A stretch of DNA of 12,548 bases from a virus. Taxonomy: Duplodnaviria; Heunggongvirae; Uroviricota; Caudoviricetes. The first letter of the stretch is position 1. Every line of letters begins with the position of its first letter. Both the position numbers and the translations under genes were made by a program. The notes below the pieces were generated by a model, which searched no databases, was not told where the DNA came from, and saw only the letters and a program-made list of their open reading frames with translations. The DNA lies in IMG/VR virus record IMGVR_UViG_2778261640_000001, positions 1 through 12,548 of that record; one strand, 5' to 3'. Of the stretch, positions 1 to 12,548 are shown piece by piece.

Positions 1-411
1 ATGCCTGCCCCCGTCGTCCTGATCCTTGCGGCCGGGCGTGGAGAGCGCTTTCTCGCCTCCGGGGGAAATACCCATAAGTGTATCGGCTGGCGTCAGTCCC
101 CGGAGGTTGCGCCTTATCGCTGGCCATTTGAAGAAAACGGGAGAACTTTCGACCTTGCGATTGAACCGCAGATTACGACTAATGATCTGCGTCTGATGTT
201 GAGGCTGACTCTTGCCGGCGGAGGAATAACAATTGCCACTCAGGAAACTTTCAGGCCATATATTGAAAGCGGTAAGCTTGTATCGCTGCTTGATGACTTT
301 CTTCCACAATTTCCGGGCTTCTATCTGTATTTCCCACAGCGTCGCAATATTGCACCAAAGCTCCGCGCCCTGATTGACTACGTCAAAGAATGGCGGCAGC
401 AATTGGCTTAA
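1..411 (+). CDS. LysR-family transcriptional regulator, C-terminal part (5' end outside window); probably host flank
   Basis: ORF runs from the window edge to TAA at 409-411. From about residue 40 the translation reads like a LysR effector-binding domain C-terminus (RWPFEENGRTF, NDLRLMLRLTLAGGGITIATQETF, IESGKLVSLLDDF, FYLYFPQRRNIAPKLRALIDYVKEW). The first 40 residues are less typical. Confidence 0.55.
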   Translation: MPAPVVLILAAGRGERFLASGGNTHKCIGWRQSPEVAPYRWPFEENGRTFDLAIEPQITTNDLRLMLRLTLAGGGITIATQETFRPYIESGKLVSLLDDFLPQFPGFYLYFPQRRNIAPKLRALIDYVKEWRQQLA

Positions 412-671
412 ATGTCTGCACCTGCACTGCCTGATGTCAGAACAGTATTTTGATGAATTGCCAAGGTTACAATGGCACAAATACGGCACAGGAGGAAACG
501 TGGTGTATTTAAATATGGGGTAACTCTTTGATTTTAATGGTGCGATAATAGGAATGAACATTACAAGTTAACACATTGATTTATAATAGATTATAATATT
601 CAAAAAATATAACTATACACATATCTATACACACTGCGTGCGTCGCTTGTTTTTCGCACAATTAAAAATAA

Positions 672-975
672 GAAAAAAATTTTTTTTCGAAAGAACTGTT
701 CACACTGTTCACCTTTCTTTTTTCTCCTTTTATTTCAGTATGATAGGTGGTGAATAATGGGTGAAGGGTGAACATTCGATTCTTCACCTCCGGCATTCTG
801 CCGGTGTGACTCATACCGGTGATTAATCCCCCGTACTAAAAATCGCACAGGGAGAAAAAAGTTTTTTTTGATTTGATTGTTCACACTGTTCACCTTTCGT
901 TTTTCTCTTTTAATTTCAGTGTGATAACGGGTGAATATACGGTGAAGGGTGAACAGTGGATTGTTCACCTTCGGG
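672..975. repeat. crr: crr-like cis replication region: two ~120-bp direct repeats (672-792 and 852-975) separated by ~60 bp, each carrying TGTTCACC / GGTGAACA octamers
   Basis: Hand alignment shows the two copies nearly identical (ctgttcacactgttcacctttc ... atttcagt.tgata ... ggtgaagggtgaaca ... ttcacct). This matches the recalled P4 crr layout and sits immediately downstream of the alpha gene. Confidence 0.75.
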
Positions 976-988
976 GGATTCAGGGATG

Positions 989-1012
989 AAAAAAGACCGG
1001 CAGATGCCGGTC
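989..1012 (-). terminator. Rho-independent terminator of the leftward (alpha) operon
   Basis: On the minus strand an 8-bp inverted repeat GACCGGCA/TGCCGGTC (995-1012) is followed by six T (989-994), 17 nt after the alpha stop codon. Confidence 0.65.
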
Positions 1013-1028
1013 AGATGAGTCATGAGGG

Positions 1029-3362
1029 TCAGGTTGTTGCAGGGTCGTCACATTTTGGCAGCCAGTCGCCGTAGCTTTCCTCTTTCAGCGTCAGGTTGGT
1101 CTGTATCCCCTGTTTGGTATGGCGCTTCTCGTAATTCAGCCCGTATTCCTTCAGCATCACCGGCAGCCCCAGCCCGAACATTTTCAGACTGAGTACATTC
1201 CGGTAGCCGTTTGCCTCCATGTAGGCCAGATAGGCGTGATAGAGGTATTTACGGTAGTTACGCGGGATGATACTGGCGTTCCCCATATACATGCCGCTGG
1301 TCTGCGGCAGGGTTTCCAGATAGCCGATAAAATCAAACGTCGGGTCGGCATCCCGTTTGATGTTCAGTGCCTCGTCTGAGTTCTGCTGGGACTGAAGCAG
1401 TGACCGGGCGAGCATCGGGTCGCTGAACTTCTGCATCAGGTGACGCACGATGACCGCCAGCTCGCGGGTGATTTTGTCCTTAAGCTGCGGGTCGCGCTCC
1501 TGCGGGGCTATCTGTTCCGGGAAGTGAATAATCACCCGCCGGCGTGACACGCCGCCGCTGCGGTCGGTGAAGCGCATCGGGTTATTGTTGACGGCCAGAA
1601 TCACCGCCGGGATATGCGTGGAGTACGCATCCCGGTATTTCGGGTCAACGGACACCGCATCGCCGCCGGTGATGGCCTTGAGTCCGGCTCCGTCGCCGCT
1701 CCATTTTTCCTGGTCCGGCAGGCGTATCAGTGAGAAGCCAGTTAACGCGGCACGTTCACGCGGGGATTCCAGCGTCTCGATGGTGGCCGACGTGGCGTTA
1801 TCCTCCCCGGCCAGCAGGGTGGCTATTTCGGCCATGATACTTTTGCCGCTGCCGCCGGGACCGGTCACCTCCAGAAAGAGCTGCCAGTCGTAGCGGTTTG
1901 CCAGCACCATAAACAGTGCGGCCAGAATCACGTCGCGTTTTTCCGCACGACCACCGGCGGCACGGTCAAGCCAGCGCCAGAACGCGGGAGCGTGGGTTTC
2001 CAGCGTTTCCCCTTCCACCGGCGGGGTGAAATCCACATCGCACAGGGTGCGCATCCAGTGTGACGGACTGTGCGGGTGGAACGAGCCGTTCTGCGTGTCG
2101 AGCACGCCGTTACGAAAGCCAATCAGGCGGCGGGAGGGGGCTTCCTGCTGCGGAATAATCAGCTTCAGGGTGTCCACCACGGAGGCCACCTTCCCGGAGG
2201 AGAACGGCGCGCGCAGCCGCTGAAACAGCCCGGCCACATCCCGGGCAAAGTCCTGTGGTGGCAGCACCTTCCAGACACCATTTTCATAGCGGGACAGAAG
2301 CTGGCCGTTGGCATCGACCGCGAGCGCCTCGCCGTAATGCTCATAGATACGCATGGCCTTTTCGCTGGTACTCATGGCGGAAAACTCCGCTTCGCTCATG
2401 GTGTCGAACGGGCTTTCAGCCGGTGGCCGGATGGCATCATAAATGGCCTTACGGGTGGCTTCCCCGCCGTACTGCGTGAAGGCATCATTCCAGTCACCGA
2501 AGACCGGCGGCAGGGCAACAACACCTTCACACGCATCTGCGGCTGCGGCGGCTTTTGTCTGGCCGTCACCGCTGAGGTCACGGTCAGCAGCAAGGACAAT
2601 CTGACAGGCCGGATGCTTCTGCCGGGCAAGGCTGGCCAGAGAAAGGAGGTTCACGGAAGAAAGCGCCACCATCACCGTTTCACCGGTCAGGTGATGTACG
2701 GTAAGTGCGGTCGCGTATCCCTCCGCTATCCACAGACGTTTTCCGGCCTGATTCTGTCCTTCAAGGGTGTGACAGGTGCCCCTGACCTGTCCGCCTTTCA
2801 GGGTGCGCTTACGGCCGTCAGCACTGATTAACTGAAGGTTAACCAGTTCGCCGCTGTCGTCATACAGTGGCACCACAAGGTCACCGGCGCGCCAGCTCAC
2901 GCCACCGGCTCTGTGTGTGCCGGTCAGCATCCGGCATTCCCGGCCGGGAAAGCCCTTGCGGGTCAGGTAGGCGTTACCGGTTCCGGGACGGGTTTTCGCC
3001 ATCAGGGTTTGTGCCAGTGCGGCGGCGTTCTTCCGGGCGGCTTCTGTTTCAGCACCGGCGGCAGCCGTCACTGCCGGGTCAGCCGGGGGCAGACTGCCGG
3101 TCACGGCAGCCACCTTTGTGGCCGCGTCGGACGGGGAAACACCAAACACCTTTTCAACCAGTTTCAGGCCGTCACCGGCACCACACTGATTGCAGTACCA
3201 GGTGCCGCGCCCCTCCCTGTCATCAAAACGGAAGCGGTCACTCCCGCCACAGACCGGACAGGGCTGATGACGGTTTTTCAGCACCTGAATCCCCAGCGCC
3301 GGGAGAATACGCGGCCAGTGACCGAGCGCATGGCTGACGGTGGCGGTTACGTTCATTTTCAT
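1029..3362 (-). CDS. alpha: P4 alpha-type primase-helicase / origin-binding replication protein
   Basis: 777-aa ORF. N-terminal zinc-ribbon primase signature (CPVCGGSDRFRFDD ... WYCNQCG), a Toprim-like acidic stretch (LAADRDLSGDGQ), Walker A GPGGSGKS and a long C-terminal domain. AGGAG sits 9 nt upstream of the ATG. Length equals recalled P4 alpha. Confidence 0.9.
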   Translation of the reverse strand: MKMNVTATVSHALGHWPRILPALGIQVLKNRHQPCPVCGGSDRFRFDDREGRGTWYCNQCGAGDGLKLVEKVFGVSPSDAATKVAAVTGSLPPADPAVTAAAGAETEAARKNAAALAQTLMAKTRPGTGNAYLTRKGFPGRECRMLTGTHRAGGVSWRAGDLVVPLYDDSGELVNLQLISADGRKRTLKGGQVRGTCHTLEGQNQAGKRLWIAEGYATALTVHHLTGETVMVALSSVNLLSLASLARQKHPACQIVLAADRDLSGDGQTKAAAAADACEGVVALPPVFGDWNDAFTQYGGEATRKAIYDAIRPPAESPFDTMSEAEFSAMSTSEKAMRIYEHYGEALAVDANGQLLSRYENGVWKVLPPQDFARDVAGLFQRLRAPFSSGKVASVVDTLKLIIPQQEAPSRRLIGFRNGVLDTQNGSFHPHSPSHWMRTLCDVDFTPPVEGETLETHAPAFWRWLDRAAGGRAEKRDVILAALFMVLANRYDWQLFLEVTGPGGSGKSIMAEIATLLAGEDNATSATIETLESPRERAALTGFSLIRLPDQEKWSGDGAGLKAITGGDAVSVDPKYRDAYSTHIPAVILAVNNNPMRFTDRSGGVSRRRVIIHFPEQIAPQERDPQLKDKITRELAVIVRHLMQKFSDPMLARSLLQSQQNSDEALNIKRDADPTFDFIGYLETLPQTSGMYMGNASIIPRNYRKYLYHAYLAYMEANGYRNVLSLKMFGLGLPVMLKEYGLNYEKRHTKQGIQTNLTLKEESYGDWLPKCDDPATT

Positions 3363-3376
3363 GGTGTTGTTCTCCT

Positions 3377-3697
3377 TCAGTGCAGTACCGGCGCTTTTAT
3401 GTGACGGGCACAGAGTTCATCCATCACAACCAGCCCGAGAAAGGACAGCGACGGCGCGGCCTTCAGGGGGCCGGATTCCATTAAATCTTCCAGCAGGGCA
3501 CAGGCTATCTGACGCCCTTTTTCCTCACCGTGCTGGCGCAGATAAAAGCCTTCCAGCTCAGCGGCGATGGCCGCCTCCAGTGATTCAAGGGTGAGATGCG
3601 GGTAGCGGTGCTGACGTTCGCACACGGTCAGCCAGGCACAGGCGACAGCACGACGGTAAAGGGCTGCGCGTAAGACGGGCGGTAAGGGTGTTTTCAT
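3377..3697 (-). CDS. cnr: Cnr-like copy-number regulator (P4 orf106 equivalent)
   Basis: 106-aa ORF immediately upstream of alpha in the same operon, with GGGAGG 7 nt before the ATG. Position and length match recalled P4 cnr. Confidence 0.7.
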
Positions 3698-3832
3698 TTG
3701 CTTTCCTCCCTGTGACAGATGACTGCATTCCGTGCCGGTTGCATTAACTGATAAGGCATATCTGCGTCTCCTGAAGACGTGCGTATCCCTGCGCGAATAC
3801 GCACATTTAATTTTTCGGGGGTCGTTTTTTAA

Positions 3833-4288
3833 TTACAGATAATTGCGGTAACTGTTATCCGGGGTGGTTTCCGGGTCAGGCTCCATGCGGGGAATTTCCC
3901 GCCATTCCCGCGCCACCGGTGCCGCCCGGCTGACCGGAACAGGGGCCTGCGGGTAAATATCCAGATATTTTTCCCGCCATTTCTGTAATTCCGGGTCTCC
4001 GGCCATTTCTTTCAGTACCGCATGCCGGTTTACGGGGCTGCGTTTAAACAGGTCAGGACGGTCACAGGTAAATTCCCGCAGAAAACGCCCCAGCGGGATG
4101 TCTGTGGTGCGCCCGTCAGCGAGGATACGCACAAGGATACTGAATTTACGGCGGTACGGGTTCCAGACAATGTCCGGGCAGCGGTACGGCATTTCCCACG
4201 GAATACCGTCTTCCAGAATGCCGACCACGGCCACATCGGGAAAACCGGCAGAACGGTAAATCTCACCGGGCTGGGGAAAATCAAACAT
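3833..4288 (-). CDS. P4 orf151-like protein, function unknown
   Basis: 151-aa ORF with GGGGAGA upstream of the ATG. Its ATG overlaps the last codons of the upstream epsilon-like ORF, suggesting translational coupling. Length and position match P4 orf151. Confidence 0.65.
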   Translation of the reverse strand: MFDFPQPGEIYRSAGFPDVAVVGILEDGIPWEMPYRCPDIVWNPYRRKFSILVRILADGRTTDIPLGRFLREFTCDRPDLFKRSPVNRHAVLKEMAGDPELQKWREKYLDIYPQAPVPVSRAAPVAREWREIPRMEPDPETTPDNSYRNYL

Positions 4289-4568
4289 GCGTCCTGTCTC
4301 CCCGGTCTTTCTGCTGGGCGAGAAAATCGCGGCACAGGCCTTTGGCTTTCAGCTCATTCAGCACAAAATCAATATCTTCATTCAGGTAGCTGAAAATATG
4401 CGGAATGTAGAGCTGATGCAGGCCGGAGAGTTCACGGTGAATCAAATCACCCCCAACAAACTGGGATACGGCGCTGGCGCGGTTGAGCTTATGGTAAGCC
4501 TCAATGCTGAGGTGTTCACGGGCGTCATGACGCGCTGAGACGGTCTGAGGGGCTTTTTTATTACGCAC
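4281..4568 (-). CDS. epsilon: epsilon-like protein (P4 antirepressor position), 95 aa from a GTG start
   Basis: GTG at 4568-4566 is preceded by GGTGGTGGAGGTG and overlaps the kil stop. The track's longer 147-aa version would overlap kil out of frame and lacks a ribosome-binding site. Confidence 0.55.
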
Positions 4569-4758
4569 GGGACACCTCCACCACCGGCAGACGGGCAGCA
4601 AGGGAGAGCACATAGTCACGGACAAGGGAACGGCGGGCGCTGCGTTCATCACCGGCGACGGTGCGAAGCATACAGATACGGGGATGACGGTCTGCGCGAC
4701 GGACAGCCGCAAACACAAAGACAAATTCAGGGTGTGAGGGGGTAAGGGTTGTAGCCAT
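4561..4758 (-). CDS. kil: Kil-like 65-aa peptide, first translated gene downstream of PLE
   Basis: ATG at 4758-4756 is preceded by GGAGG at an 8-nt spacing and gives exactly 65 aa ([12 protein letters not shown]...VVEVSRA) to the TAA at 4563-4561. This is the 3' part of the longer eta frame. Confidence 0.6.
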
Positions 4759-5160
4759 GATGGCAGCCTCCGTTAGATAGCAGGTTACGCTATCGCCGGA
4801 GTTCTCACGCTCAATGGCGATAGCCCAGACGGGGGTGAGAATACCGGCTCTAACGGATACCGGCCAGCCCGGAGGCTGCCCCGCCTGAGCTACCATTGAC
4901 TCTGCGGCATAATGAGCGGACGCGGGCAGGATGCACGGAATGCCATCTGCACGACTGACCACACACCACACCATAATCTGGCGCTCTGTGGCGTTGATTG
5001 CGACACAAAAAAAGACGCATGGCGCGTCATATGTCGCCGTTAGATTGCTCGGGTTCTCACGCCCGGCTGCCGATTTTGCGGCAGCGGAAAAACTATATCC
5101 GCAAATGCCGGAAAAAGGCAAGCCAGAAAAAGGGACTTTTTGCAGAGCGGGCATCATCAT
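4561..5160 (-). CDS. eta: eta-like ORF (about 199 aa), same frame as kil, starting upstream of PLE and spanning the cI/seq region
   Basis: The in-frame ATGATGATG at 5160-5152 overlaps the vis stop. Starting at 5160 gives 199 aa. The frame stays open across seqA, the seqB region and seqC. The track's upstream start at 5205 lies inside vis. Confidence 0.4.
4770..4810 (-). promoter_or_regulatory. seqC-like target, complementary to seqB; overlaps the kil ribosome-binding site
   Basis: Minus strand reads gcgtgagaactccggcgatagcgtaacctgctatctaacgg. Its ends (gtgagaa ... tctaacgg) are complementary to the seqB candidate. Confidence 0.55.
4812..4900 (-). ncRNA. cI: CI-RNA-like immunity RNA; boundaries approximate, seqB core at 4835-4856
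   Basis: Minus-strand ccgttagagccggtattctcac (4856-4835) is complementary to both flanking elements. Exact ends cannot be set from sequence alone. Confidence 0.35.
5037..5062 (-). promoter_or_regulatory. seqA-like target, complementary to seqB, in the PLE leader
   Basis: Minus strand reads gcgtgagaacccgagcaatctaacgg, sharing gtgagaa and tctaacgg with seqC, both complementary to seqB. Confidence 0.55.
5092..5121 (-). promoter_or_regulatory. PLE-like sigma70 promoter of the leftward operon
   Basis: Minus strand -35 TTGCCT (5121-5116), 18-nt spacer, -10 TATAGT (5097-5092). The start would lie about 25 nt upstream of seqA. Confidence 0.5.
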
Positions 5161-5423
5161 GCGTCGTACCCCCGTTTGCGTCCGGCAATGCGCCCGGCCA
5201 TCCATGCGGTGACTTCTGAGTGCAGCCAGGCCACATTTTTACCGCCAAGACTCACCTGCGGCGGAAATTCCCCCTTACGGATGAGTTCATAGATGGTCGA
5301 GCGTGACAGGCCGCACAGGTGCATCACTTCCGGCAGACGTAAAAAACGCTCCTGCGTGATGTCCGGCAGCGGCATCAGTGGCGTCACAGGGGCGGGAGAC
5401 GGGGAAGAAAAAACAGCTTGCAT
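5157..5423 (-). CDS. vis: Vis-like AlpA-family helix-turn-helix regulator / excision factor
   Basis: 88-aa ORF with an AlpA-type motif ([44 protein letters not shown]). GAGG sits 8 nt upstream of the ATG. Length and position match P4 vis. Confidence 0.8.
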
Positions 5424-5525
5424 CGGGCTACCTCGTTAATGTCCATACAGCACCGGATAAGTCCGTCCGGCTTCGGGTAGCGCTTTATTTTGTGAATATT
5501 TTCAGCAGACGCAACAGGGGGGATT

Positions 5526-5543
5526 TGTTCCGGCAGCCTTACA
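5526..5543. promoter_or_regulatory. TGT-N12-ACA dyad, an Ogr/Delta-type activator site, upstream of vis (PLL-like late promoter)
   Basis: TGT (5526-5528), 12 nt, ACA (5541-5543), centred about 110 bp upstream of the vis ATG. Confidence 0.45.
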
Positions 5544-5570
5544 ATGCTTGTGTGTTTTTTGTTCATCTCC

Positions 5571-5600
5571 ACTTAAAGTCATTTAAAGCCACTTAAAGCA
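5571..5600. repeat. Three tandem 10-bp repeats (acttaaagtc / atttaaagcc / acttaaagca)
   Basis: Read directly between the PLL-side dyad and the ori iterons. Function unknown. Confidence 0.5.
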
Positions 5601-5702
5601 ATTCGTAATTTTTATAGTGAAATACAAATCGTTTTTTCTTATTCATTCCCGGCGAATTAATAAAAACAAACAGTAATAAACAGCACAAAAAGCCCATCAA
5701 CG

Positions 5703-5807
5703 GGTGAACAGTGGTGAACAGACGGTGAACAGTCATTACTGCGATTGTTCACCATTTAACTTACTGTATTACTTATCTTTTTTCTTATGGTGAACAGAGG
5801 TGAACAG
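5703..5807. other. ori: ori-like replication origin: six TGTTCACC-type iterons in direct and inverted orientation
   Basis: GGTGAACAG at 5703, 5713, 5724, 5789 and 5799, plus inverted TGTTCACC at 5746, the same octamer as in crr. Flanked by AAACAAACAGTAA direct repeats (about 5665 and 5821). Lies about 4.9 kb from crr. Confidence 0.7.
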
Positions 5808-5885
5808 TAAAATATAAAAAAACAAACAGTAAGCCGGTTTTTCCTGCGACCTTTTCCTGGCTTGCCGGTGTGAGGATGAGTCTCC

Positions 5886-5903
5886 TGTGTCAGGGCTGGC
5901 ACA
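5886..5903. promoter_or_regulatory. TGT-N12-ACA dyad, an Ogr/Delta-type activator site, of a Psid-like late promoter
   Basis: TGT (5886-5888), gtcagggctggc, ACA (5901-5903), centred about 80 bp upstream of the sid ATG. Confidence 0.55.
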
Positions 5904-5974
5904 TCTGCAATGCGTCGTGTTGTTGTCCGGTGTACGTCACAATTTTCTCAACCTGAAGTGACGAGGAGCCGAAA

Positions 5975-6709
5975 ATGTCTGACAACACCATCCCTGAATA
6001 TCTGCAATCCGCGCTGGCACAACTGGAAAAGGCCAGAGCCGCCCATCTTGAGAACGCCCGTCTGATGGATGAGACCGTCACGGCCATTGAACGGGCAGAG
6101 CAGGAAAAAAATGCGCTGGCGCAGGCCGACGGAAACGACGCTGACGACTGGCGCACGGCCTTTCGTGCAGCCGGTGGTGTCCTGAGCGACGAGCTGAAAC
6201 AGCGCCACATTGAGCGCGTGGCACGCCGGGAGCTGGTACAGGAATATGACAATCTGGCCGTGGTGCTGAATTTTGAACGCGAACGCCTGAAAGGGGCGTG
6301 TGACAGCACGGCCACCGCCTACCGGAAGGCACATCATCACCTTCTGAGTCTGTATGCAGAGCATGAGCTGGAACACGCCCTGAATGAAACCTGTGAGGCG
6401 CTTGTCCGGGCAATGCATCTGAGCATTCTGGTACAGGAAAATCCGCTCGCCAACACCACCGGCCATCAGGGCTACGTCGCACCGGAAAAGGCTGTCATGC
6501 AGCAGGTGAAATCATCGCTGGAACAGAAAATTAAACAGATGCAAATCAGCCTCACCGGCGAGCCGGTTCTCCGGCTGACCGGACTGTCAGCGGCAACACT
6601 CCCGCACATGGATTATGAGGTGGCAGGCACACCGGCACAGCGCAAGGTGTGGCAGGACAAAATAGACCAGCAGGGTGCAGAGCTTAAGGCCAGAGGACTG
6701 CTGTCATGA
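5975..6709 (+). CDS. sid: Sid-like external capsid size-determination scaffold
   Basis: 244-aa ORF, coiled-coil-like and rich in A/E/L/Q. GAGGAG sits 7 nt before the ATG. Length and position match P4 sid. Confidence 0.8.
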   Translation: MSDNTIPEYLQSALAQLEKARAAHLENARLMDETVTAIERAEQEKNALAQADGNDADDWRTAFRAAGGVLSDELKQRHIERVARRELVQEYDNLAVVLNFERERLKGACDSTATAYRKAHHHLLSLYAEHELEHALNETCEALVRAMHLSILVQENPLANTTGHQGYVAPEKAVMQQVKSSLEQKIKQMQISLTGEPVLRLTGLSAATLPHMDYEVAGTPAQRKVWQDKIDQQGAELKARGLLS

Positions 6710-7206
6710 TTTACTGCCCGTCGTGTGGACATGTTGCTCACACTCGTCGCGCACATTTCATGGACGATGGCACCAAGATAATGATTGCACAGTGCCGGAA
6801 TATTTATTGCTCTGCGACATTTGAAGCGAGTGAAAGCTTTTTCTCTGACAGTAAAGATTCAGGAATGGAATACATTTCAGGCAAACAGAGATACCGCGAT
6901 TCACTGACTTCTGCCTCCGGCAGTATGAAACGCCCGAAAAGAATGCTTGTTACCGGATATTGTTGTCGGAGATGTAAAGGCCTTGCACTGTCAAGAACAT
7001 CGCGGCGTCTGTCTCAGGAAGTCACCGAGCGTTTTTATGTGTGCACGGATCCGGGCTGTGGTCTGGTGTTTAAAACGCTTCAGACCATCAACCGTTTCAT
7101 TGTCCGCCCGGTCACACCGGACGAACTGGCAGAAAGCCTGCATGAAAAACAGGAACTGCCGCCAGTACGGTTAAAAACACAATCATATTCGCTGCGTCTG
7201 GAATGA
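6706..7206 (+). CDS. delta: Delta-like late-gene transactivator with two Ogr-type zinc-finger modules
   Basis: 166-aa ORF whose ATG overlaps the sid stop (ATGA). Two cysteine modules: CPSCGHVAH...CRNIYCSATF and CRRCKGLAL...CTDPGCGLVF. Confidence 0.85.
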   Translation: MIYCPSCGHVAHTRRAHFMDDGTKIMIAQCRNIYCSATFEASESFFSDSKDSGMEYISGKQRYRDSLTSASGSMKRPKRMLVTGYCCRRCKGLALSRTSRRLSQEVTERFYVCTDPGCGLVFKTLQTINRFIVRPVTPDELAESLHEKQELPPVRLKTQSYSLRLE

Positions 7207-7279
7207 GGGCTGTCGGTTAACACCGGCCGTCGCCGCACACCGTATTTTTATTCTTCAGCATGATGAGAAAGAGATAACG

Positions 7280-7852
7280 ATGGAAAGCACAGCCTTACAG
7301 CAGGCCTTTGACACCTGTCAGAATAACAAAGCAGCATGGCTGCAACGCAAAAATGAGCTGGCAGCGGCCGAACAGGAATACCTGCGGCTTCTGTCAGGAG
7401 AAGGCAGAAACGTCAGTCGCCTGGACGAATTACGCAATATTATCGAAGTCAGAAAATGGCAGGTGAATCAGGCCGCCGGTCGTTATATTCGTTCGCATGA
7501 AGCCGTTCAGCACATCAGCATCCGCGACCGGCTGAATGATTTTATGCAGCAGCACGGCACAGCACTGGCGGCGGCACTGGCACCGGAGCTGATGGGCTAC
7601 AGTGAGCTGACGGTCATTGCCCGAAACTGTGCCATTCAGCGTGCCACAGATGCCCTGCGTGAAGCCCTTCTGTCCTGGCTTGCGAAGGGGGAAAAAATTA
7701 ATTATTCCGCACAGGATAGCGACATTTTAACGACCATCGGATTCAGGCCTGACGCGGCTTCGGTGGATGACAGCCGTGAAAAATTCACCCCTGCGCAGAA
7801 CATGATTTTTTCGCGTAAAAGTGCGCAACTGGCATCACGTCAGTCTGTGTAA
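7280..7852 (+). CDS. psu: Psu-like polarity suppression / capsid decoration protein
   Basis: 190-aa ORF, last gene of the sid-delta-psu operon. Length matches P4 psu. Confidence 0.8.
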   Translation: MESTALQQAFDTCQNNKAAWLQRKNELAAAEQEYLRLLSGEGRNVSRLDELRNIIEVRKWQVNQAAGRYIRSHEAVQHISIRDRLNDFMQQHGTALAAALAPELMGYSELTVIARNCAIQRATDALREALLSWLAKGEKINYSAQDSDILTTIGFRPDAASVDDSREKFTPAQNMIFSRKSAQLASRQSV

Positions 7853-7888
7853 AATTCCCCGAAAATCCGCCTGTTTTTACTGAAAAAA

Positions 7889-7916
7889 GCCATGCATCGA
7901 TAAGGTGCATGGCTTT
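7889..7916 (+). terminator. Hairpin terminator candidate downstream of psu
   Basis: GCCATGCA (7889-7896), 9-nt loop, TGCATGGC (7906-7913), then TTTG. The T tract is short, so possibly a weak terminator. Confidence 0.45.
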
Positions 7917-8016
7917 GCATGCGTTTCCCTGCCTCATTTTCTGCAGACCGCGCCATTCCCGGCGCAGCCTGAGCGTGTCAGTACAACTGCATTAAAACCG
8001 CCCCACAAAGCGGGCG

Positions 8017-8035
8017 GGCGTGGCGGGGAGAGCAT
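8017..8035. other. cos: cos-like site (putative P2/P4-type cohesive end)
   Basis: GGCGTGGCGGGGAGAGCAT matches 16 of 19 positions of the P2/P4 cohesive end as I recall it (GGCGAGGCGGGGAAAGCAC, from memory). It lies between psu and the cargo, where P4 cos is expected. Confidence 0.4.
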
Positions 8036-8052
8036 TGCGCGCCAAGTAATTT

Positions 8053-9675
8053 TTAATTTATTTTTTTATAAAGGCCATCTAACCCAGGTTTCAAAAGAAA
8101 TTGAGATGGAGCCCCGTTCTTAAGATCACCTGAACCATTATACCGTTTCGTAGAATGCATTAGCATAATGCCTTTTCTTGCTCGTGTAATTCCTACGTAA
8201 TGAAGATTTATGCATTGCTGTTCATTTTCGAATACAACATCATAGCTTCCTTCTATGAAAACTCTTTTAGGCAAAATCCAATCATACAGATCCAAATGAA
8301 AAACAAAGTCAAACTCAAGACCTTTAGACTTATGTAACGTCATTATTTGTACTTCATCACTTCTAACATCCAAATAATTATTTTGCATCCTCGGAGTAAC
8401 TAATATCTCTGAAAGAGCGGACTTATGATGCTGCTCGATTTCAGTCCCTAAAAGAGTTACTACAATTTTATTTATTACGTCAATAAGAAAGGCATCTGTA
8501 ACACTTCTAACCTGCTTAATAGCCTTACGGATACGAGTAGCCTCGCTCCTTTTGACACTGCTTCCCAAAACCCCCTCCAAAATAGACTGAGCAGTTTTAT
8601 TTAAGTTATACCTGTAACATAATAAATCATTAACAAGACCAGAAACCTTACCACCAGCCTTTGTTAAATCATTATCCAAATAAGCCCTATTAGAAACAAC
8701 TAAATTATCAGAAACTAGCTCCGCGCAAGCATTGCTTCTTACCAATATAGCAATCTCCTTATTATCAGATATTGAAAATTTATTTTTTACATTATCAAGA
8801 ATTTCACCAATCCATTTAGCTATATCAATTTGATTGCCATCAACACATTTTCTATAAACAAAAATCTCATCACACGGAGCTAGTTGACATTCAAAATCTT
8901 TAATTCTATTGGCGTAATTTACTATAGATGGGTGACATCTGTGATTTACTGTAATTTCCTTATGACAGAAACCACTATCATTCATGAAATCTTTTAGTGA
9001 ATCCGAACTGCGGTGAGAATACAAATAAATTGATTGATCCAAATCACCAACGATAATAAGAGGCATCCCTAGCGTTGGTATGAACTTGAAAACCTGATGA
9101 GTAAAATAACCGGTATCCTGATACTCATCGACAAAAAAACCAATATACTTTGCCATTAAATACCGCTGACAAGAATATGATGTTCTAACTATATAAAAAG
9201 CCAAGTGAGGAAGGAAGTCTAAAATCAACATCCCCTTTAAATAAATATCCCTCAGAGAACCCATGCCCTCAAATGAAGTATTAGAATAAAAATCCACTCG
9301 GTCAAAGTACTTATTTGTCTTATCTTTTAATTCTTGAGAAAGATCTATATACTTTACTACTTCGAGAGCGCTTTCGTTTCTGCCCCATACTTGCCTTACA
9401 AAAGGTAATATTATTTCGTTAATGAAAAACTTATCAATAGTACCAAAGAAGCTAGAATTTAACTCTGCTCCCAATTTTCTACATCTGGATTTTAGCTCCT
9501 CGCTGGATTTATTCGTATATGATAACGCAACAACTCCCTGATAATCCTTGGAATGGGATAAACAGGCAGCAATCTTATGGACGAGTATTGTTGTTTTACC
9601 ACTTCCTGGGCATGCAGTTATAACCAGATTACCTTCGTAATCAATTGCATCTAACTGTTCCTTAGTTAGCTTCAT
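8053..9675 (-). CDS. gajB: UvrD/PcrA/Rep-like SF1 helicase, GajB-like partner of a class 2 OLD nuclease
   Basis: 540-aa ORF with all SF1 helicase motifs read by eye: I ACPGSGKTT, Ia ALSYTNKSSEEL, II FVDEYQDT, III IIVGDLDQSIY, IV VNHRCHPSIVNYAN, V IMTLHKSKGLEFDFVF, VI YVGITRARKG. ATGA overlap with the upstream gene and GAGGTGA ribosome-binding site. AT-rich. Confidence 0.75.
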   Translation of the reverse strand: MKLTKEQLDAIDYEGNLVITACPGSGKTTILVHKIAACLSHSKDYQGVVALSYTNKSSEELKSRCRKLGAELNSSFFGTIDKFFINEIILPFVRQVWGRNESALEVVKYIDLSQELKDKTNKYFDRVDFYSNTSFEGMGSLRDIYLKGMLILDFLPHLAFYIVRTSYSCQRYLMAKYIGFFVDEYQDTGYFTHQVFKFIPTLGMPLIIVGDLDQSIYLYSHRSSDSLKDFMNDSGFCHKEITVNHRCHPSIVNYANRIKDFECQLAPCDEIFVYRKCVDGNQIDIAKWIGEILDNVKNKFSISDNKEIAILVRSNACAELVSDNLVVSNRAYLDNDLTKAGGKVSGLVNDLLCYRYNLNKTAQSILEGVLGSSVKRSEATRIRKAIKQVRSVTDAFLIDVINKIVVTLLGTEIEQHHKSALSEILVTPRMQNNYLDVRSDEVQIMTLHKSKGLEFDFVFHLDLYDWILPKRVFIEGSYDVVFENEQQCINLHYVGITRARKGIMLMHSTKRYNGSGDLKNGAPSQFLLKPGLDGLYKKIN

Positions 9676-11372
9676 AATTCACCTCTAGCAATTTTCAGTG
9701 CATGTATTAGAGGTCTGGCTATATCTTTGCTCTTCAGTTCAGTTAAAAAAGCTTTTTTCTCTTTAATTAACTCACGCATACGTATAGCTTTTTTTCCTCT
9801 CAAATAATCAGCGGCATCATCTAGATTATCCTTACTTGCATAATCAAGAACATGCTTCGAAAAGTCATTAGCAAGATCTCCTTCAAGATCAAAAAAAGAT
9901 ATATAAACGCCGTTAGGATTTATTATTGGTGAAATGGTTCCCCACTTAGTATGCAAAGCTTTACTATCTATAGGAATACTTGAGTTTGGTTCTTTATTCT
10001 CTCCACACAGTGCTAACGCCCTATTTACACCAGCATATTGCCATTCATTCTTATGAGGTACTTTTGAAGCATCATTGTCTGTTCTTACGATCCAATTAAT
10101 ATTTAGAGCTGTTAATATTTTTCTATAAACTTCAAATTGGATACCATCAACAGAAAGAATGCTGATGTTATAATAATCAAGATCAATACTTAATGCTTTT
10201 GCTAATTCAGTGTAAAAAATCACCTCAGATGGTCCCTCGACCAAAAAAACCACGTTAGCAAAAAATGCCTCAGCAGGAATAATACTCATCCGGTAGCCCA
10301 TTCCATCCCATGCAGAGCTAATACAATCAGAACATCCATTACTTGCGGCTAGAGTCTCTCCATCATCATAGTATAGTTTTATGATTGAATCAGGTTTAAA
10401 ATTCACTGCAATTTGGGGTGAGTGGCTTGTAACGATTGCTTGGCCTGGAAGTTTATCGATTAAATAGGCCGCCAATTTTCTTTGCTGGTGAGGAAATAGA
10501 TGTGCTTCCGGTTCCTCTATACAATAGATCACTACTTCACTTTCAACATCATGCTCGCGAACACTTTTTGCTTTCCATAACGCAAGAAGGATTTGGTTAT
10601 TAAACCCATCGCCACCAAGCATTAGTTTCTTCCCATTTGTATTCGCACTTAATTCTAATTTCTCTATAAACTGGTCAATCCCTATTGCACCAGTATCAAG
10701 TTGAACAGTTAATCTATCATGAGTATAGGATAACTTTCTAAGTTCCTCGTTAAGCTCTTCTGTTGCTGATGCAACATAACTTATTCCTTTAACTTTTTCA
10801 TTTACTTCAGTAAGTAGCTTATTTAATTCAGTAAAAACCGCCCCATCATTTTCAGTATCCTTTTCACTACGAACTTCTTGCGCCAATCTTAAAAGATGCT
10901 TCTTTTCAATTTTAATGTATTTTTCAAGATCTCTTTGCGAATTTATATACCTTAGACTTAAACACTTTAAGTAAAATCTATTAGGAACCTCATCAAAATT
11001 GTTATGTTCATGACTAAGTAATATCTTGTAATCCATAGTTAATGATGAAGCAAGATACTTAATGTATGTTTCCCCTTCATCGCTAACATACCCTCCTAAT
11101 TTAGATATTACAGCATCTTCACTAACATCTGTAAACTTGATAGTGATTTCTATATTTTCAACCTGTTCACCTGTCGAATTTACATGAAAGTCATTGCTTT
11201 TTGGTTCTAGATCTAATTCAGATAAACTTTTATCAAGTAATAATCGAATGGCATATAATAGGTTGGTCTTTCCAACATCATTTGCACCTATAATCAAATT
11301 AGTTTCATTAAAATTAATAACAGCATCACAGTAATTCCTGAATCCTTTAATATAAACAGTTTCAATTCTCAT
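9672..11372 (-). CDS. gajA: OLD-family ABC-ATPase plus Toprim nuclease, GajA-like
   Basis: 566-aa ORF. Walker A GANDVGKTN near the N-terminus, Walker B / H-loop (VVIYCIEEPEAHLFP ... IVTSHSPQ), C-terminal Toprim motifs (VVFLVEGPSEV, WIVRTDNDAS). The ATG directly follows the int stop (TAAATG). AT-rich. Confidence 0.75.
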   Translation of the reverse strand: MRIETVYIKGFRNYCDAVINFNETNLIIGANDVGKTNLLYAIRLLLDKSLSELDLEPKSNDFHVNSTGEQVENIEITIKFTDVSEDAVISKLGGYVSDEGETYIKYLASSLTMDYKILLSHEHNNFDEVPNRFYLKCLSLRYINSQRDLEKYIKIEKKHLLRLAQEVRSEKDTENDGAVFTELNKLLTEVNEKVKGISYVASATEELNEELRKLSYTHDRLTVQLDTGAIGIDQFIEKLELSANTNGKKLMLGGDGFNNQILLALWKAKSVREHDVESEVVIYCIEEPEAHLFPHQQRKLAAYLIDKLPGQAIVTSHSPQIAVNFKPDSIIKLYYDDGETLAASNGCSDCISSAWDGMGYRMSIIPAEAFFANVVFLVEGPSEVIFYTELAKALSIDLDYYNISILSVDGIQFEVYRKILTALNINWIVRTDNDASKVPHKNEWQYAGVNRALALCGENKEPNSSIPIDSKALHTKWGTISPIINPNGVYISFFDLEGDLANDFSKHVLDYASKDNLDDAADYLRGKKAIRMRELIKEKKAFLTELKSKDIARPLIHALKIARGEL

Positions 11373-12548
11373 TTACATTTTCCTTAAAAATAACGTTGAA
11401 GAGAAAAAGTTCAACATTTTCCTTCTTTCTTCAATGAATGTTGCATGATTATATGTACCGCGAATTCTATTACTATCAACGTGAGCGAGCTGTAATTCAA
11501 TATATTGAGAATTAAAGCCAGCATCATGTAAAATAGTTGACATCATATGCCTAAATCCATGACCTGTAAGCCTGCCACCGTATCCAAGTCGCTTTATAAG
11601 CTGATTGATAGCGGCCTCACTCATTGGCTTACTCGGATCATTTCGCCCAGGAAAAACATAACGATAGTTGCCTGTCATTGTCTTGAGTTCATTGAGTAAA
11701 TCTAACGCCTGAGTAGACAATGGCACAAGATGCGGCCTGCGCATTTTCATCCTTTCAGCAGGAATTTCCCAAATAGCGTTATCCAGATCAAATTCTTGCC
11801 ATAATGCCGCGCGTAATTCGATGGTTCTCACGCCCGTAATCATCAGTAATTTCGTTGCTATCTGGACAATTTTACTCCCGGTGTAACTCTCTAAGGCACG
11901 CAGAAATTCGGGTATCTCATCAGCTTTTAAGAACGGGAAATGATTGGATTGATGCACTTCGAGAGCGCTGGAGAGATCCGCAGCAGGATTGTACTCCGCC
12001 CTACCTGTTGCAATTGCGTAGCGAAACACCTCGGAGCAACGCTGCCGCACTTTACGCATTTTCTCCAACGCACCACGTTTCTCAATTTTACGCAGTACGT
12101 TCAGCAGCTCTAGCGGTTTAATCTCTCCCACAGGCCTTGTTCCAACATAAGGAAAAATGTCGTTCTTAAACGCTTCCATGATGTCTGATGCGTATCCAGC
12201 TGACCATTTAGCAGATTTAAGTTGATGCCACTCTCTGGCGATCTTTTCGAAGGCGTTCTCTGACTCTGTTTGCAGAGCCAGCTTTTGCTCTTTTCGAACC
12301 TCACTAGGGTTCTTTCCTTCTGCCACAAGTTTTCGAGCTTCATCACGACGGGAACGAGCATCGGCAAGGGTGATCGTTGGGTAAACGCCAAGCGAGATCA
12401 TCTTGGGTTTACCGGCGTAGCGATAGCGGAACCGCCAGCTCTTGCTTCCATTAGGTTCTATAAGCAATGACAAGCCTTGCCCATCCCCAAGCGTATAGGG
12501 TTTATCTTCAGGCTTAGCGCGGCGAATCTGCATATCGTTTAAAGGCAT
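11373..12548 (-). CDS. int: P4-type tyrosine integrase; ATG at the window edge
   Basis: 391-aa ORF. N-terminus MPLNDMQIRRAKPEDKPY is typical of P4-family integrases. The C-terminal catalytic region carries HGFRHMMST and LAHVDSNRIRGTYNHA with the likely catalytic tyrosine. Confidence 0.85.
   Translation of the reverse strand: MPLNDMQIRRAKPEDKPYTLGDGQGLSLLIEPNGSKSWRFRYRYAGKPKMISLGVYPTITLADARSRRDEARKLVAEGKNPSEVRKEQKLALQTESENAFEKIAREWHQLKSAKWSAGYASDIMEAFKNDIFPYVGTRPVGEIKPLELLNVLRKIEKRGALEKMRKVRQRCSEVFRYAIATGRAEYNPAADLSSALEVHQSNHFPFLKADEIPEFLRALESYTGSKIVQIATKLLMITGVRTIELRAALWQEFDLDNAIWEIPAERMKMRRPHLVPLSTQALDLLNELKTMTGNYRYVFPGRNDPSKPMSEAAINQLIKRLGYGGRLTGHGFRHMMSTILHDAGFNSQYIELQLAHVDSNRIRGTYNHATFIEERRKMLNFFSSTLFLRKM

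What the first reader, a model, noticed from the sequence alone, without database searches (positions are those of the whole stretch)
8017..11372. Sharp compositional break marks the cargo as foreign to the satellite backbone
Hand counts of sample 60-nt lines give roughly 25-40% GC inside the two cargo genes against roughly 55-65% GC in the alpha and sid regions. The 3' part of int is intermediate. The break coincides with the cos-like site on one side and the int stop on the other, pointing to independent acquisition of the cargo.
Basis: seen in the sequence. Interest (0 to 1): 0.45.

Follow-up and report, generated by a model that had tools for sequence, protein, structure and literature searches.

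The report
Gabija defence cassette in P4 satellite hotspot
The AT-rich block is a known two-gene anti-phage system (Gabija) sitting in the already described swap-in "defence hotspot" of a P4-type phage satellite, so the compositional step is real but ordinary.

Summary
The GC step is real. The maximum-likelihood changepoint is at 8043 (log-likelihood ratio 180; none of 1000 shuffles reach it). GC is 0.34 over 8044-11556, against 0.54-0.61 in the backbone. The window is an integrated P4-like satellite, 97.9% identical to phage P4 from crr to the cos cut at 8016. The low-GC block is its cos-int defence hotspot. It holds gajA (9672-11372, minus strand) and gajB (8053-9675, minus strand), a full-length Gabija system.

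These exact proteins (WP_001356949 and WP_001356948) are already listed as P4 hotspot cargo by Rousset et al. 2022. The "foreign cargo" reading is therefore supported, mainly by comparison: near-identical backbones carry at least 41 different cargoes.

- The right-hand break is not at the int stop. It lies about 180-300 nt inside int. The last 62 int codons have GC 0.31, and sequence identity to related int genes collapses there.
- Low GC is not specific to this acquisition. All 41 cargo types surveyed have GC 0.29-0.40, including P4's own gop-beta-cII at 0.36. Composition therefore marks the hotspot gene pool, not a particular donor or date.

Verdict: already known; low interest.

The parts
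674..8016 (.). P4 backbone: crr repeats, alpha primase-helicase, immunity region, ori, sid, delta, psu, and the left half of cos
   Evidence: A single blastn alignment shows 97.9% identity to P4 NC_001609 4291-11624. Pfam finds alpha, Delta and Psu. Rfam finds C4 RNA at 4813-4900, isrK at 5008-5085 and c4-a1b1 at 5046-5098. GC is 0.54-0.61 apart from the ori dip.
7280..7852 (+). psu, the last conserved backbone gene before the hotspot
   Evidence: Pfam Psu, E = 3e-88; GC 0.531.
7998..8017 (-). GC-rich hairpin followed by TTTT on the minus strand, next to the cos cut; candidate terminator for the gajAB transcript
   Evidence: Terminator-like site CCGCCCGCTTTGTGGGGCGG TTTTAATGCA. The number of such sites is not above the shuffle expectation, so a terminator role is inferred only. 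The sequence is conserved in all 41 surveyed elements.
8017..8035 (+). cos 19-nt cohesive-end sequence, a variant form (GGCGTGGCGGGGAGAGCAT)
   Evidence: The linear P4 record ends at window 8016 and starts with GGCGAGGCGGGGAAAGCAC. The window has 3 mismatches to that. The canonical form occurs in 35 of 41 surveyed elements and the window's variant in 2 of 41.
8036..8042 (+). TGCGCGC, the last conserved bases of the right arm of cos; the left junction of the hotspot lies at 8042/8043
   Evidence: Column conservation is at least 0.93 up to +25 from the cut and 0.27-0.6 from +26 onward across 41 distinct cargoes. This coincides with the maximum-likelihood GC changepoint at 8043.
8043..11372 (-). 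Variable low-GC hotspot cargo block (GC 0.34)
8053..9675 (-). gajB, a UvrD-like superfamily-1 helicase of 540 aa
   Evidence: Matches PADLOC GajB model PDLC00123 at E = 3e-224 over the full length. Pfam finds UvrD-helicase and UvrD_C. The solved B. cereus GajB matches at E = 4e-33. Motifs present: GSGKT at residue 24, DEYQD at 183, GDLDQSIY at 210, TRAR at 497. GC 0.345, GC3 0.285.
9672..11372 (-). gajA, an OLD-family ABC-ATPase plus TOPRIM nuclease of 566 aa; its stop overlaps the gajB start (ATGA)
   Evidence: Matches PADLOC GajA model PDLC00066 at E = 4e-261 over the full length. Pfam finds AAA_15 and OLD-like_TOPRIM. The solved GajA matches at E = 1e-35. Motifs present: GANDVGKT at residue 29, EEPE at 286, EGPSE at 379, DND at 432. 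The sequence matches the part of the Gabija representative in Rousset Table S1B that was retrieved. GC 0.339, GC3 0.229.
11373..12548 (-). int, a tyrosine recombinase of 391 aa of the thrW-integrating type; it is not P4's int
   Evidence: Pfam finds Arm-DNA-bind_3, Phage_int_M and Phage_integrase. There is no nucleotide match to P4. tRNA-Thr lies 163 nt beyond the int start in E. coli E1. GC 0.451.
11373..11556 (-). AT-rich, highly divergent 3' end of int. It encodes the catalytic HGFR box and the RGTY tyrosine, and it carries the gajA ribosome-binding site (AAGGA) in its last codons.
   Evidence: GC is 0.31 and GC3 0.27 for codons 331-392. The changepoint is at 11556. Identity to related int genes falls from 0.8-0.97 to 0.47-0.78 over the last roughly 300 nt and over 11401-11600 against L65.
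11542..11570 (-). Candidate sigma-70 promoter inside int, about 170 nt upstream of gajA (weak lead only)
   Evidence: CTTACA, 17-nt spacer, TATGAT; 9 of 12 matches. The overall count of promoter-like sites is not above chance.

Best explanation
The window is a P4-like phage satellite integrated at the thrW (tRNA-Thr) site of an E. coli chromosome. The low-GC block from 8043 to about 11556-11670 is the satellite's known variable "defence hotspot" between cos/psu and int.

In this element the hotspot holds a two-gene Gabija operon on the minus strand. gajA starts immediately after the int stop codon, and its ribosome-binding site lies inside int's last codons. gajB is translationally coupled to gajA through an ATGA overlap. 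The transcript runs toward cos and probably ends at the GC-rich hairpin beside the cos cut.

By homology, GajA is an OLD-family ATPase-TOPRIM DNA endonuclease and GajB a UvrD-like helicase. In the characterised B. cereus system the two form one complex that cleaves phage DNA or aborts infection. That protects the lysogen, and with it the satellite.

The cassette most likely arrived by homologous recombination between P4-like elements. One crossover would lie in the invariant cos arm, which is conserved up to 8042. The other would lie inside the 3' quarter of int. This is why both composition and sequence identity break inside int rather than at its stop.

The low GC is a shared property of the whole pool of cassettes that circulate through this hotspot. 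It is not a trace of a particular donor.

Shown here: the step, the gene identities, the junctions, the alternative cargoes and the identity profile. Inferred: the recombination route, the transcription pattern and the anti-phage activity.
For: - GC step and changepoints.
- Codon and GC3 contrast.
- Identity to P4: 97.9% up to the cos cut; P4 itself shows the same contrast, with gop-beta-cII at 0.362 and alpha at 0.609.
- Gabija identification: full-length PADLOC matches, Pfam domains and intact motifs.
- Prior listing: the same proteins appear in Rousset 2022 Table S1A as psu-int hotspot cargo, and the row is labelled Gabija in Table S1B.
- Integration next to tRNA-Thr and proA.
- Distribution in E. 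coli: the cargo at 99.7% identity or more is in 18 of 5426 complete genomes, and the same number of genomes holds the full psu-cos-gajBA-int stretch.
- Alternative cargoes behind near-identical backbones.
- Survey: 41 distinct cargoes, GC 0.288-0.395, against backbone 0.53-0.57.
- Left junction: invariant at +25/+26 from the cos cut.
- Identity collapse against E. coli L65: 97-100% up to 8000, 45-74% over 8001-11600, 80-88% in the 5' part of int.
- Step inside int in all related int genes, for example Enterobacter 0.94, then 0.76, then 0.47.
Against: - No experiment shows that this allele defends against phage. Protein similarity to the characterised B. cereus Gabija is distant (E about 1e-35).
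- The alignment to solved GajA stops at residue 473, so the C-terminal catalytic residues were not checked.
- Promoter-like and terminator-like sites are not more numerous than in shuffles, so the transcription model is inferred.
- The drop in identity at the int 3' end could partly reflect faster evolution or poorer alignment of AT-rich sequence rather than crossovers. No formal breakpoint test was run.
- No att direct repeat was found.
Confidence: 0.9

Rival explanations
1. The block was imported recently and directly from a low-GC donor genome, for example a Firmicute. Its 34% GC is the unameliorated signature of that donor. This is the classical reading of a compositional island.
For: GC is 0.34 and GC3 0.23-0.29, against about 0.52 for the host flanks and 0.54-0.61 for the backbone. 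The characterised Gabija comes from Bacillus cereus.
Against: - All 41 distinct hotspot cargoes have the same GC of 0.29-0.40. That is unlikely for 41 unrelated donors.
- The closest relatives found are enterobacterial: Leclercia 72%, Tatumella 70%, Enterobacter 63%, Klebsiella 62% GajA identity. The Bacillus proteins match only at E about 1e-35.
- A Gabija allele diverged to 62%/49% protein identity occupies the same site with the same GC in E. coli L65, Klebsiella and Enterobacter. The AT-rich state therefore predates this element.
Confidence: 0.07
2. int and Gabija arrived together as a single int-plus-cargo module. The true right boundary of the foreign DNA would then lie beyond int at the attachment site, not inside int.
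For: - int is not P4's int, and nothing right of 8016 or left of 674 matches P4.
- int has intermediate GC, 0.45.
- int is only 80-88% identical to L65, where the backbone is 97-100%.
- gajA abuts the int stop with no spacer.
- This int type sits beside Gabija in three genera.
Against: - The same int type (86-87% protein identity) sits beside unrelated cargoes: a reverse-transcriptase system, a single unknown gene, and others.
- The Enterobacter int is 94-98% identical over its first 880 nt, yet it flanks a Gabija only 63%/49% identical in protein.
- The step in identity inside int shows that the 5' part of int and the cargo have separate histories.
Confidence: 0.1
3. The low-GC stretch is a native functional part of the satellite, AT-rich for mechanical reasons as ori and crr are, and is not foreign cargo.
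For: Two other low-GC dips in the window (412-994 and 5405-5832) are genuine P4 replication and attachment regions. Low GC alone therefore does not prove foreign origin.
Against: - The block consists entirely of two long intact ORFs with full-length defence-protein matches.
- It is absent from P4.
- It is replaced by other genes in elements with near-identical backbones.
Confidence: 0.01

Closest known systems
P4-like satellite psu/cos-int defence hotspot (Rousset et al. 2022, Cell Host Microbe, PMC9122126; evolutionary dynamics in PMC13586616)
   Same: The position is the same, directly after cos and before int. The backbone is the same. The cargo proteins WP_001356949 and WP_001356948 are listed in that paper's Table S1A, and the matching row of Table S1B is labelled Gabija.
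   Different: Nothing essential differs. Neither paper's main text contains the term "GC content". The uniform GC of 0.29-0.40 across cargoes and the break inside the int 3' end are small additions made here.
Gabija system of Bacillus cereus VD045 (GajA/GajB; solved structures 8SM3, 8J4T, 8TK0 and others)
   Same: The two-gene order gajA then gajB is the same. GajA has an ABC-ATPase and a TOPRIM domain with Walker A, EEPE, EGPSE and DND motifs. GajB is a UvrD-like helicase with Walker A, DEYQD and motif VI.
   Different: The sequence relationship is distant (E about 1e-35). The window's proteins belong to an enterobacterial subfamily (PADLOC models PDLC00066 and PDLC00123). The system is carried on a phage satellite rather than a chromosomal defence island. 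Its activity has not been tested.
Phage P4 non-essential region gop-beta-cII
   Same: It occupies the same slot between cos and int. It has the same low GC (0.362, against 0.609 for alpha). It is itself an anti-phage system according to Rousset 2022.
   Different: The genes are unrelated, their orientation is mixed, and they are paired with a different (leuX-type) int.

Membership tests
P4-like phage satellite | Core gene set: alpha primase-helicase, sid, delta, psu, an integrase, and the immunity/AlpA-like region | tested here: met
   Pfam finds alpha domains, Ogr_Delta, Psu and integrase domains. The sid ORF is 98.8-99.2% identical in protein to the sid ORFs of two other P4-like elements and lies within the stretch 97.9% identical to P4. 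The RefSeq annotation of a 99.3% identical element lists an Icd-like protein, a helix-turn-helix regulator and the epsilon-region genes. C4 RNA and isrK are found by Rfam.
P4-like phage satellite | P2/P4-type cos site | tested here: met
   The flanks match the ends of the P4 record exactly. The 19-nt overhang differs at 3 positions from the canonical sequence. Whether this variant is packaged was not testable.
P4 cos-int defence hotspot | The locus lies between psu/cos and int | tested here: met
   psu ends at 7852, the cos cut is at 8016/8017, the cargo spans 8043-11372, and the int stop is at 11373.
P4 cos-int defence hotspot | Content varies between elements that share conserved flanks | tested here: met
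   There are 41 distinct cargo clusters behind an invariant junction. Direct alignments are, and the identity profile against L65 is.
Gabija | GajA: an N-terminal ABC-type ATPase fused to an OLD-family TOPRIM nuclease domain | tested here: met
   AAA_15 at E = 3e-33, OLD-like_TOPRIM at E = 5e-19. PADLOC GajA at E = 4e-261 covering 1-564 of 566 residues.
Gabija | GajB: a UvrD-like superfamily-1 helicase encoded immediately downstream in the same orientation | tested here: met
   UvrD-helicase and UvrD_C. PADLOC GajB at E = 3e-224. A 4-nt ATGA overlap with gajA.
Gabija | Protection against phage infection that depends on GajA nuclease activity | not testable with these tools
   This needs plaque assays with wild-type and catalytic-mutant constructs.
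Horizontally acquired compositional island | Base composition and codon usage differ significantly from the flanks and the host | tested here: met
   Log-likelihood ratio 180.5 with 0 of 1000 shuffles reaching it. GC3 is 0.23-0.29 against 0.46-0.70.
Horizontally acquired compositional island | Composition identifies a specific donor or a recent date of acquisition | tested here: not met
   All hotspot cargoes share the same GC range. Deeply diverged Gabija alleles at this site share it too.

The most novel reading that the evidence does not exclude
The strikingly uniform AT-richness of P4 hotspot cargo is an actively maintained property of the cassette pool rather than a leftover of donor composition. 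Cargo GC is 0.29-0.40 in all 41 cargo types, and GC3 is about 0.23-0.29 in the three of the four P4-borne Gabija alleles for which it was computed; those alleles fall in two deep clades. Chromosomal relatives nested among them have GC 0.43-0.47. Possible causes are selection for H-NS-type silencing or for insulation from backbone transcription. On this reading the exchanged unit regularly includes the catalytic C-terminal quarter of the integrase. Cargo swaps would then also reshuffle integrase active-site segments and place cargo ribosome-binding sites and promoters inside int.
Probability: 0.2. Interest if true: 0.4.

Novelty: already known. Interest (0 to 1): 0.13.

Why it matters
The finding rediscovers, from raw sequence alone, the P4 satellite defence hotspot and one of its catalogued cargoes (Gabija). 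That confirms a compositional scan can locate such cassettes to within a few bases on the cos side. It adds little new biology.

Two refinements may help people who delimit hotspot cargo automatically. First, the right-hand boundary lies inside int. Second, low GC is a property of the whole hotspot pool, so it cannot be used to date or source an individual acquisition.

Tried and rejected
- **att repeats.** I searched for a direct repeat of at least 12 nt between the tRNA-Thr side and the left end of the element in E. coli E1. None was found, so the element's left end was not defined.
- **Promoters and terminators.** The scan of 7700-12548 gave counts no higher than in shuffles. The internal int promoter and the cos-side terminator therefore remain leads only.
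- **Literature on composition.** I searched for an explicit statement about the base composition of P4 hotspots. None turned up in Rousset 2022, Hochhauser 2023, the 2026 NAR paper or an Enterobacter study. Older P4 sequence papers are not in the searchable library.
- **Source of the window.** I first assumed it came from E. coli E1, because 7000-12548 is 100% identical. Over its full length the best matches are only 99.3-99.4%, and the first 1100 nt are 97.0% identical to E1 with 17 gap positions. The exact source strain is not in the collection.
- **A conserved junction shared by different cargoes.** The window and W150 look similar around the int stop, but the first codons of their cargo genes differ, and the survey shows no common junction motif on the int side.
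Full report
**1. The observation**

A sliding GC profile shows GC of 0.28-0.41 in every 300-nt window from about 8100 to 11550. The alpha gene gives 0.50-0.68 and sid gives 0.56-0.61. Per-feature values are gajB 0.345, gajA 0.339, alpha 0.610, sid 0.578, delta 0.483, psu 0.531 and int 0.451.

Likelihood segmentation places the strongest changepoint of the window at 8043, with a log-likelihood ratio of 180.5. A second changepoint lies at 11556, with a ratio of 31. The maximum ratio was 9.2 in 500 mononucleotide shuffles and 108.8 in 500 shuffles of 300-nt blocks. None reached the observed value.

At codon level, GC3 is 0.229 for gajA and 0.285 for gajB. Backbone genes have 0.46-0.70 and neighbouring host genes 0.47-0.65. 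The cargo also fits host synonymous codon usage worst. The host flanks in a near-identical record have GC 0.525 overall. The step is therefore real and far beyond chance.

Two further low-GC dips, at 412-994 and 5405-5832, correspond to P4's crr/att and ori regions. A dip alone is not proof of foreign DNA in this element.

**2. What the window is**

Window 674-8016 aligns as one block, 97.9% identical, to phage P4 (NC_001609) positions 4291-11624. That runs from the crr repeats to the right end of the linear P4 record, which is the cos cut.

Pfam identifies the alpha primase-helicase (1029-3362, minus), delta (6706-7206), psu (7280-7852) and a three-domain tyrosine integrase (11373-12548, minus). 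Rfam finds the P4 immunity RNAs: C4 at 4813-4900, isrK at 5008-5085 and c4-a1b1 at 5046-5098.

In E. coli E1, which is 99.3% identical over the whole window, the element lies between a LysR pseudogene next to paoCD and tRNA-Thr/proA. It is thus an integrated P4-like satellite at thrW.

Nothing to the right of 8016 or to the left of 674 matches P4 at nucleotide level. The cargo, int and att region all differ from the reference satellite.

**3. What the low-GC block is**

The two ORFs are a Gabija system.

- The 566-aa product of 9672-11372 matches PADLOC GajA model PDLC00066 end to end (E = 4e-261). It has AAA_15 and OLD-like TOPRIM domains.
- The 540-aa product of 8053-9675 matches GajB model PDLC00123 end to end (E = 3e-224). 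It has UvrD helicase domains.
- Both find the solved B. cereus GajA and GajB chains as best structure-database hits (E about 1e-35 and 4e-33).
- The expected motifs are intact. GajA has GANDVGKT, EEPE, EGPSE and DND. GajB has GSGKT, DEYQD, GDLDQSIY and TRAR.

gajA's ATG follows the int TAA with no spacer, and an AAGGA ribosome-binding site lies inside int's last codons. gajA and gajB overlap by ATGA. A GC-rich hairpin followed by T's lies on the minus strand at 8017-7998, just past gajB.

The transcription model is inferred: read-through from int or an internal promoter, with termination beside cos. The consensus scans were not enriched over shuffles.

**4. Boundaries**

*Left.* In 41 elements with different cargoes, every column is conserved through the 19-nt cos overhang plus TGCGCGC. 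That corresponds to window 8017-8042. Conservation then drops to background from the next base, 8043. This is the same position as the maximum-likelihood GC changepoint.

*Right.* The break is inside int, not at its stop.

- The last 62 int codons have GC 0.31 and GC3 0.27. They include the HGFR box and the RGTY catalytic tyrosine. The rest of int has GC 0.45-0.50.
- Nucleotide identity of nine related int genes to the window's int falls over the last roughly 300 nt. The Enterobacter copy goes from 0.94-0.98 to 0.76, 0.71 and 0.47.
- Against E. coli L65, identity is 97-100% up to 8000, 45-74% over 8001-11600, and 80-88% across the 5' part of int.

The element therefore has three strata: backbone, 5' part of int, and cargo plus the int 3' end. 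Crossovers in the cos arm and within int are the simplest explanation. No formal breakpoint test was run.

**5. Independent acquisition**

Elements whose sid, delta and psu proteins are 98-100% identical to the window's carry a reverse-transcriptase system (E. coli W150) or a single unknown gene (OkiPb01711) at the same place.

I surveyed 80 psu-anchored viral contigs, together with those two elements, P4 and the window. This gave 58 usable loci and 41 distinct cargo clusters.

This gajAB allele occurs in 18 of 5426 complete E. coli genomes at 99.7% identity or more. The same number of genomes holds the contiguous psu-cos-gajBA-int arrangement, and none holds it on a plasmid.

A second Gabija allele occupies the same slot in E. 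coli L65, a Klebsiella and an Enterobacter. Its proteins are 62-63% (GajA) and 46-49% (GajB) identical to the window's.

**6. What the composition does and does not say**

All 41 cargo clusters have GC 0.288-0.395, with a mean of 0.335. The 2 kb of backbone upstream of cos has GC 0.53-0.57. P4's own gop-beta-cII has 0.36. The int 3' end is AT-rich in all int families: mean 0.358 against 0.445 for the rest of the gene. The step is therefore a family-wide property of the hotspot, not a mark of this particular event.

In neighbour-joining trees of seven GajA and GajB sequences, the window's allele groups with chromosomal copies from Leclercia and Tatumella. These have GC 0.43-0.47. Their neighbours are a flavohaemoglobin-like gene in Leclercia and an IS3-type transposase in Tatumella, and no P4 genes lie within 8 kb. 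The Tatumella gajA carries a frameshift. The other clade consists of P4-borne copies with GC 0.33-0.35.

AT-richness thus tracks residence in the hotspot rather than phylogeny in this very small sample. That is a lead, not a result.

**7. Comparison with what is known**

Rousset et al. 2022 (PMC9122126) described this hotspot: between psu and int, adjacent to cos, with more than 300 gene arrangements.

Their Table S1A lists WP_001356949 plus WP_001356948, the accessions carried by the two cargo genes in the E. coli E1 record, whose gajAB region is 100% identical to the window's, as hotspot content in many genomes. Their Table S1B labels that system "Gabija (Doron et al., 2018)". Its representative sequence matches the window's GajA over the part retrieved.

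A 2026 NAR paper (PMC13586616) analyses the swapping dynamics of these hotspots. The term "GC content" does not occur in the main text of either paper. The AT bias of mobile and defence genes in enterobacteria is, however, general knowledge.

**8. Verdict**

The feature is an already catalogued cargo in an already described hotspot. Novelty is "already known" and interest is low.

The only mildly new points are these:
- the base-exact coincidence of the GC changepoint with the invariant cos-arm junction;
- the extension of the variable, AT-rich zone into the catalytic 3' quarter of int;
- the uniformity of cargo GC across the hotspot.

Noticed in passing
window 8017-8035: The cos cohesive-end sequence is GGCGTGGCGGGGAGAGCAT, with 3 mismatches to the canonical P2/P4 GGCGAGGCGGGGAAAGCAC. 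Among 41 surveyed P4-like elements, 35 have the canonical form and 6 carry variants at the same three or four positions. Whether these variants are still cut and packaged by P2-type terminase is unknown.
   Followed up: partly
window 11370-11390 (minus strand): The int stop codon is followed directly by the gajA ATG (…AAGGAAAATGTAA|ATG…), so gajA's ribosome-binding site is encoded in int's last codons. In many other P4-like elements the first cargo gene also starts 0-25 nt after the int stop or overlaps it. In others a hairpin terminator follows the int stop.
   Followed up: partly
L092 (E. coli L65) 8555-11877; L006 and L007 8001-11320: A second, deeply diverged Gabija allele (GajA 62-63%, GajB 46-49% protein identity) sits in the same P4 hotspot next to the same int type in E. 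coli, Klebsiella and Enterobacter. It has the same GC of 0.33-0.35.
   Followed up: yes
L005 8001-11317 (Leclercia tamurae); L008 8001-11319 (Tatumella ptyseos): The closest relatives of the window's Gabija outside E. coli lie in non-P4 chromosomal contexts. One is next to a flavohaemoglobin-like gene and the other next to an IS3-type transposase. Both have noticeably higher GC (0.43-0.47). The Tatumella gajA is split by a frameshift.
   Followed up: partly
window 412-994 and 5405-5832: Two further low-GC dips (0.38-0.43 and 0.376). They correspond to P4's crr repeats and attachment region, and to the ori region. The crr 120-bp repeats are at 674-793 and 855-974.
   Followed up: yes
window 401-1000: This att/crr stretch is the most variable part of the backbone between otherwise near-identical elements. 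It is 94.5-95% identical to L65, and the first 1100 nt are 97.0% identical to E1 with 17 gap positions. No complete E. coli genome in the collection matches the whole window better than 99.4%.
   Followed up: partly
window 4813-5098 (minus strand): The P4 immunity RNAs are present and score above Rfam gathering thresholds: C4 antisense RNA (4813-4900), isrK (5008-5085) and the a1b1 target (5046-5098). They overlap the ORF at 4561-5205, which RefSeq annotates as an Icd-like protein.
   Followed up: no
window 1-411: A truncated LysR-family gene (substrate-binding domain only) lies at the left edge. RefSeq annotates it as a pseudogene missing its N-terminus, next to paoD. It marks the chromosomal flank of the element. 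No att direct repeat was found.
   Followed up: partly
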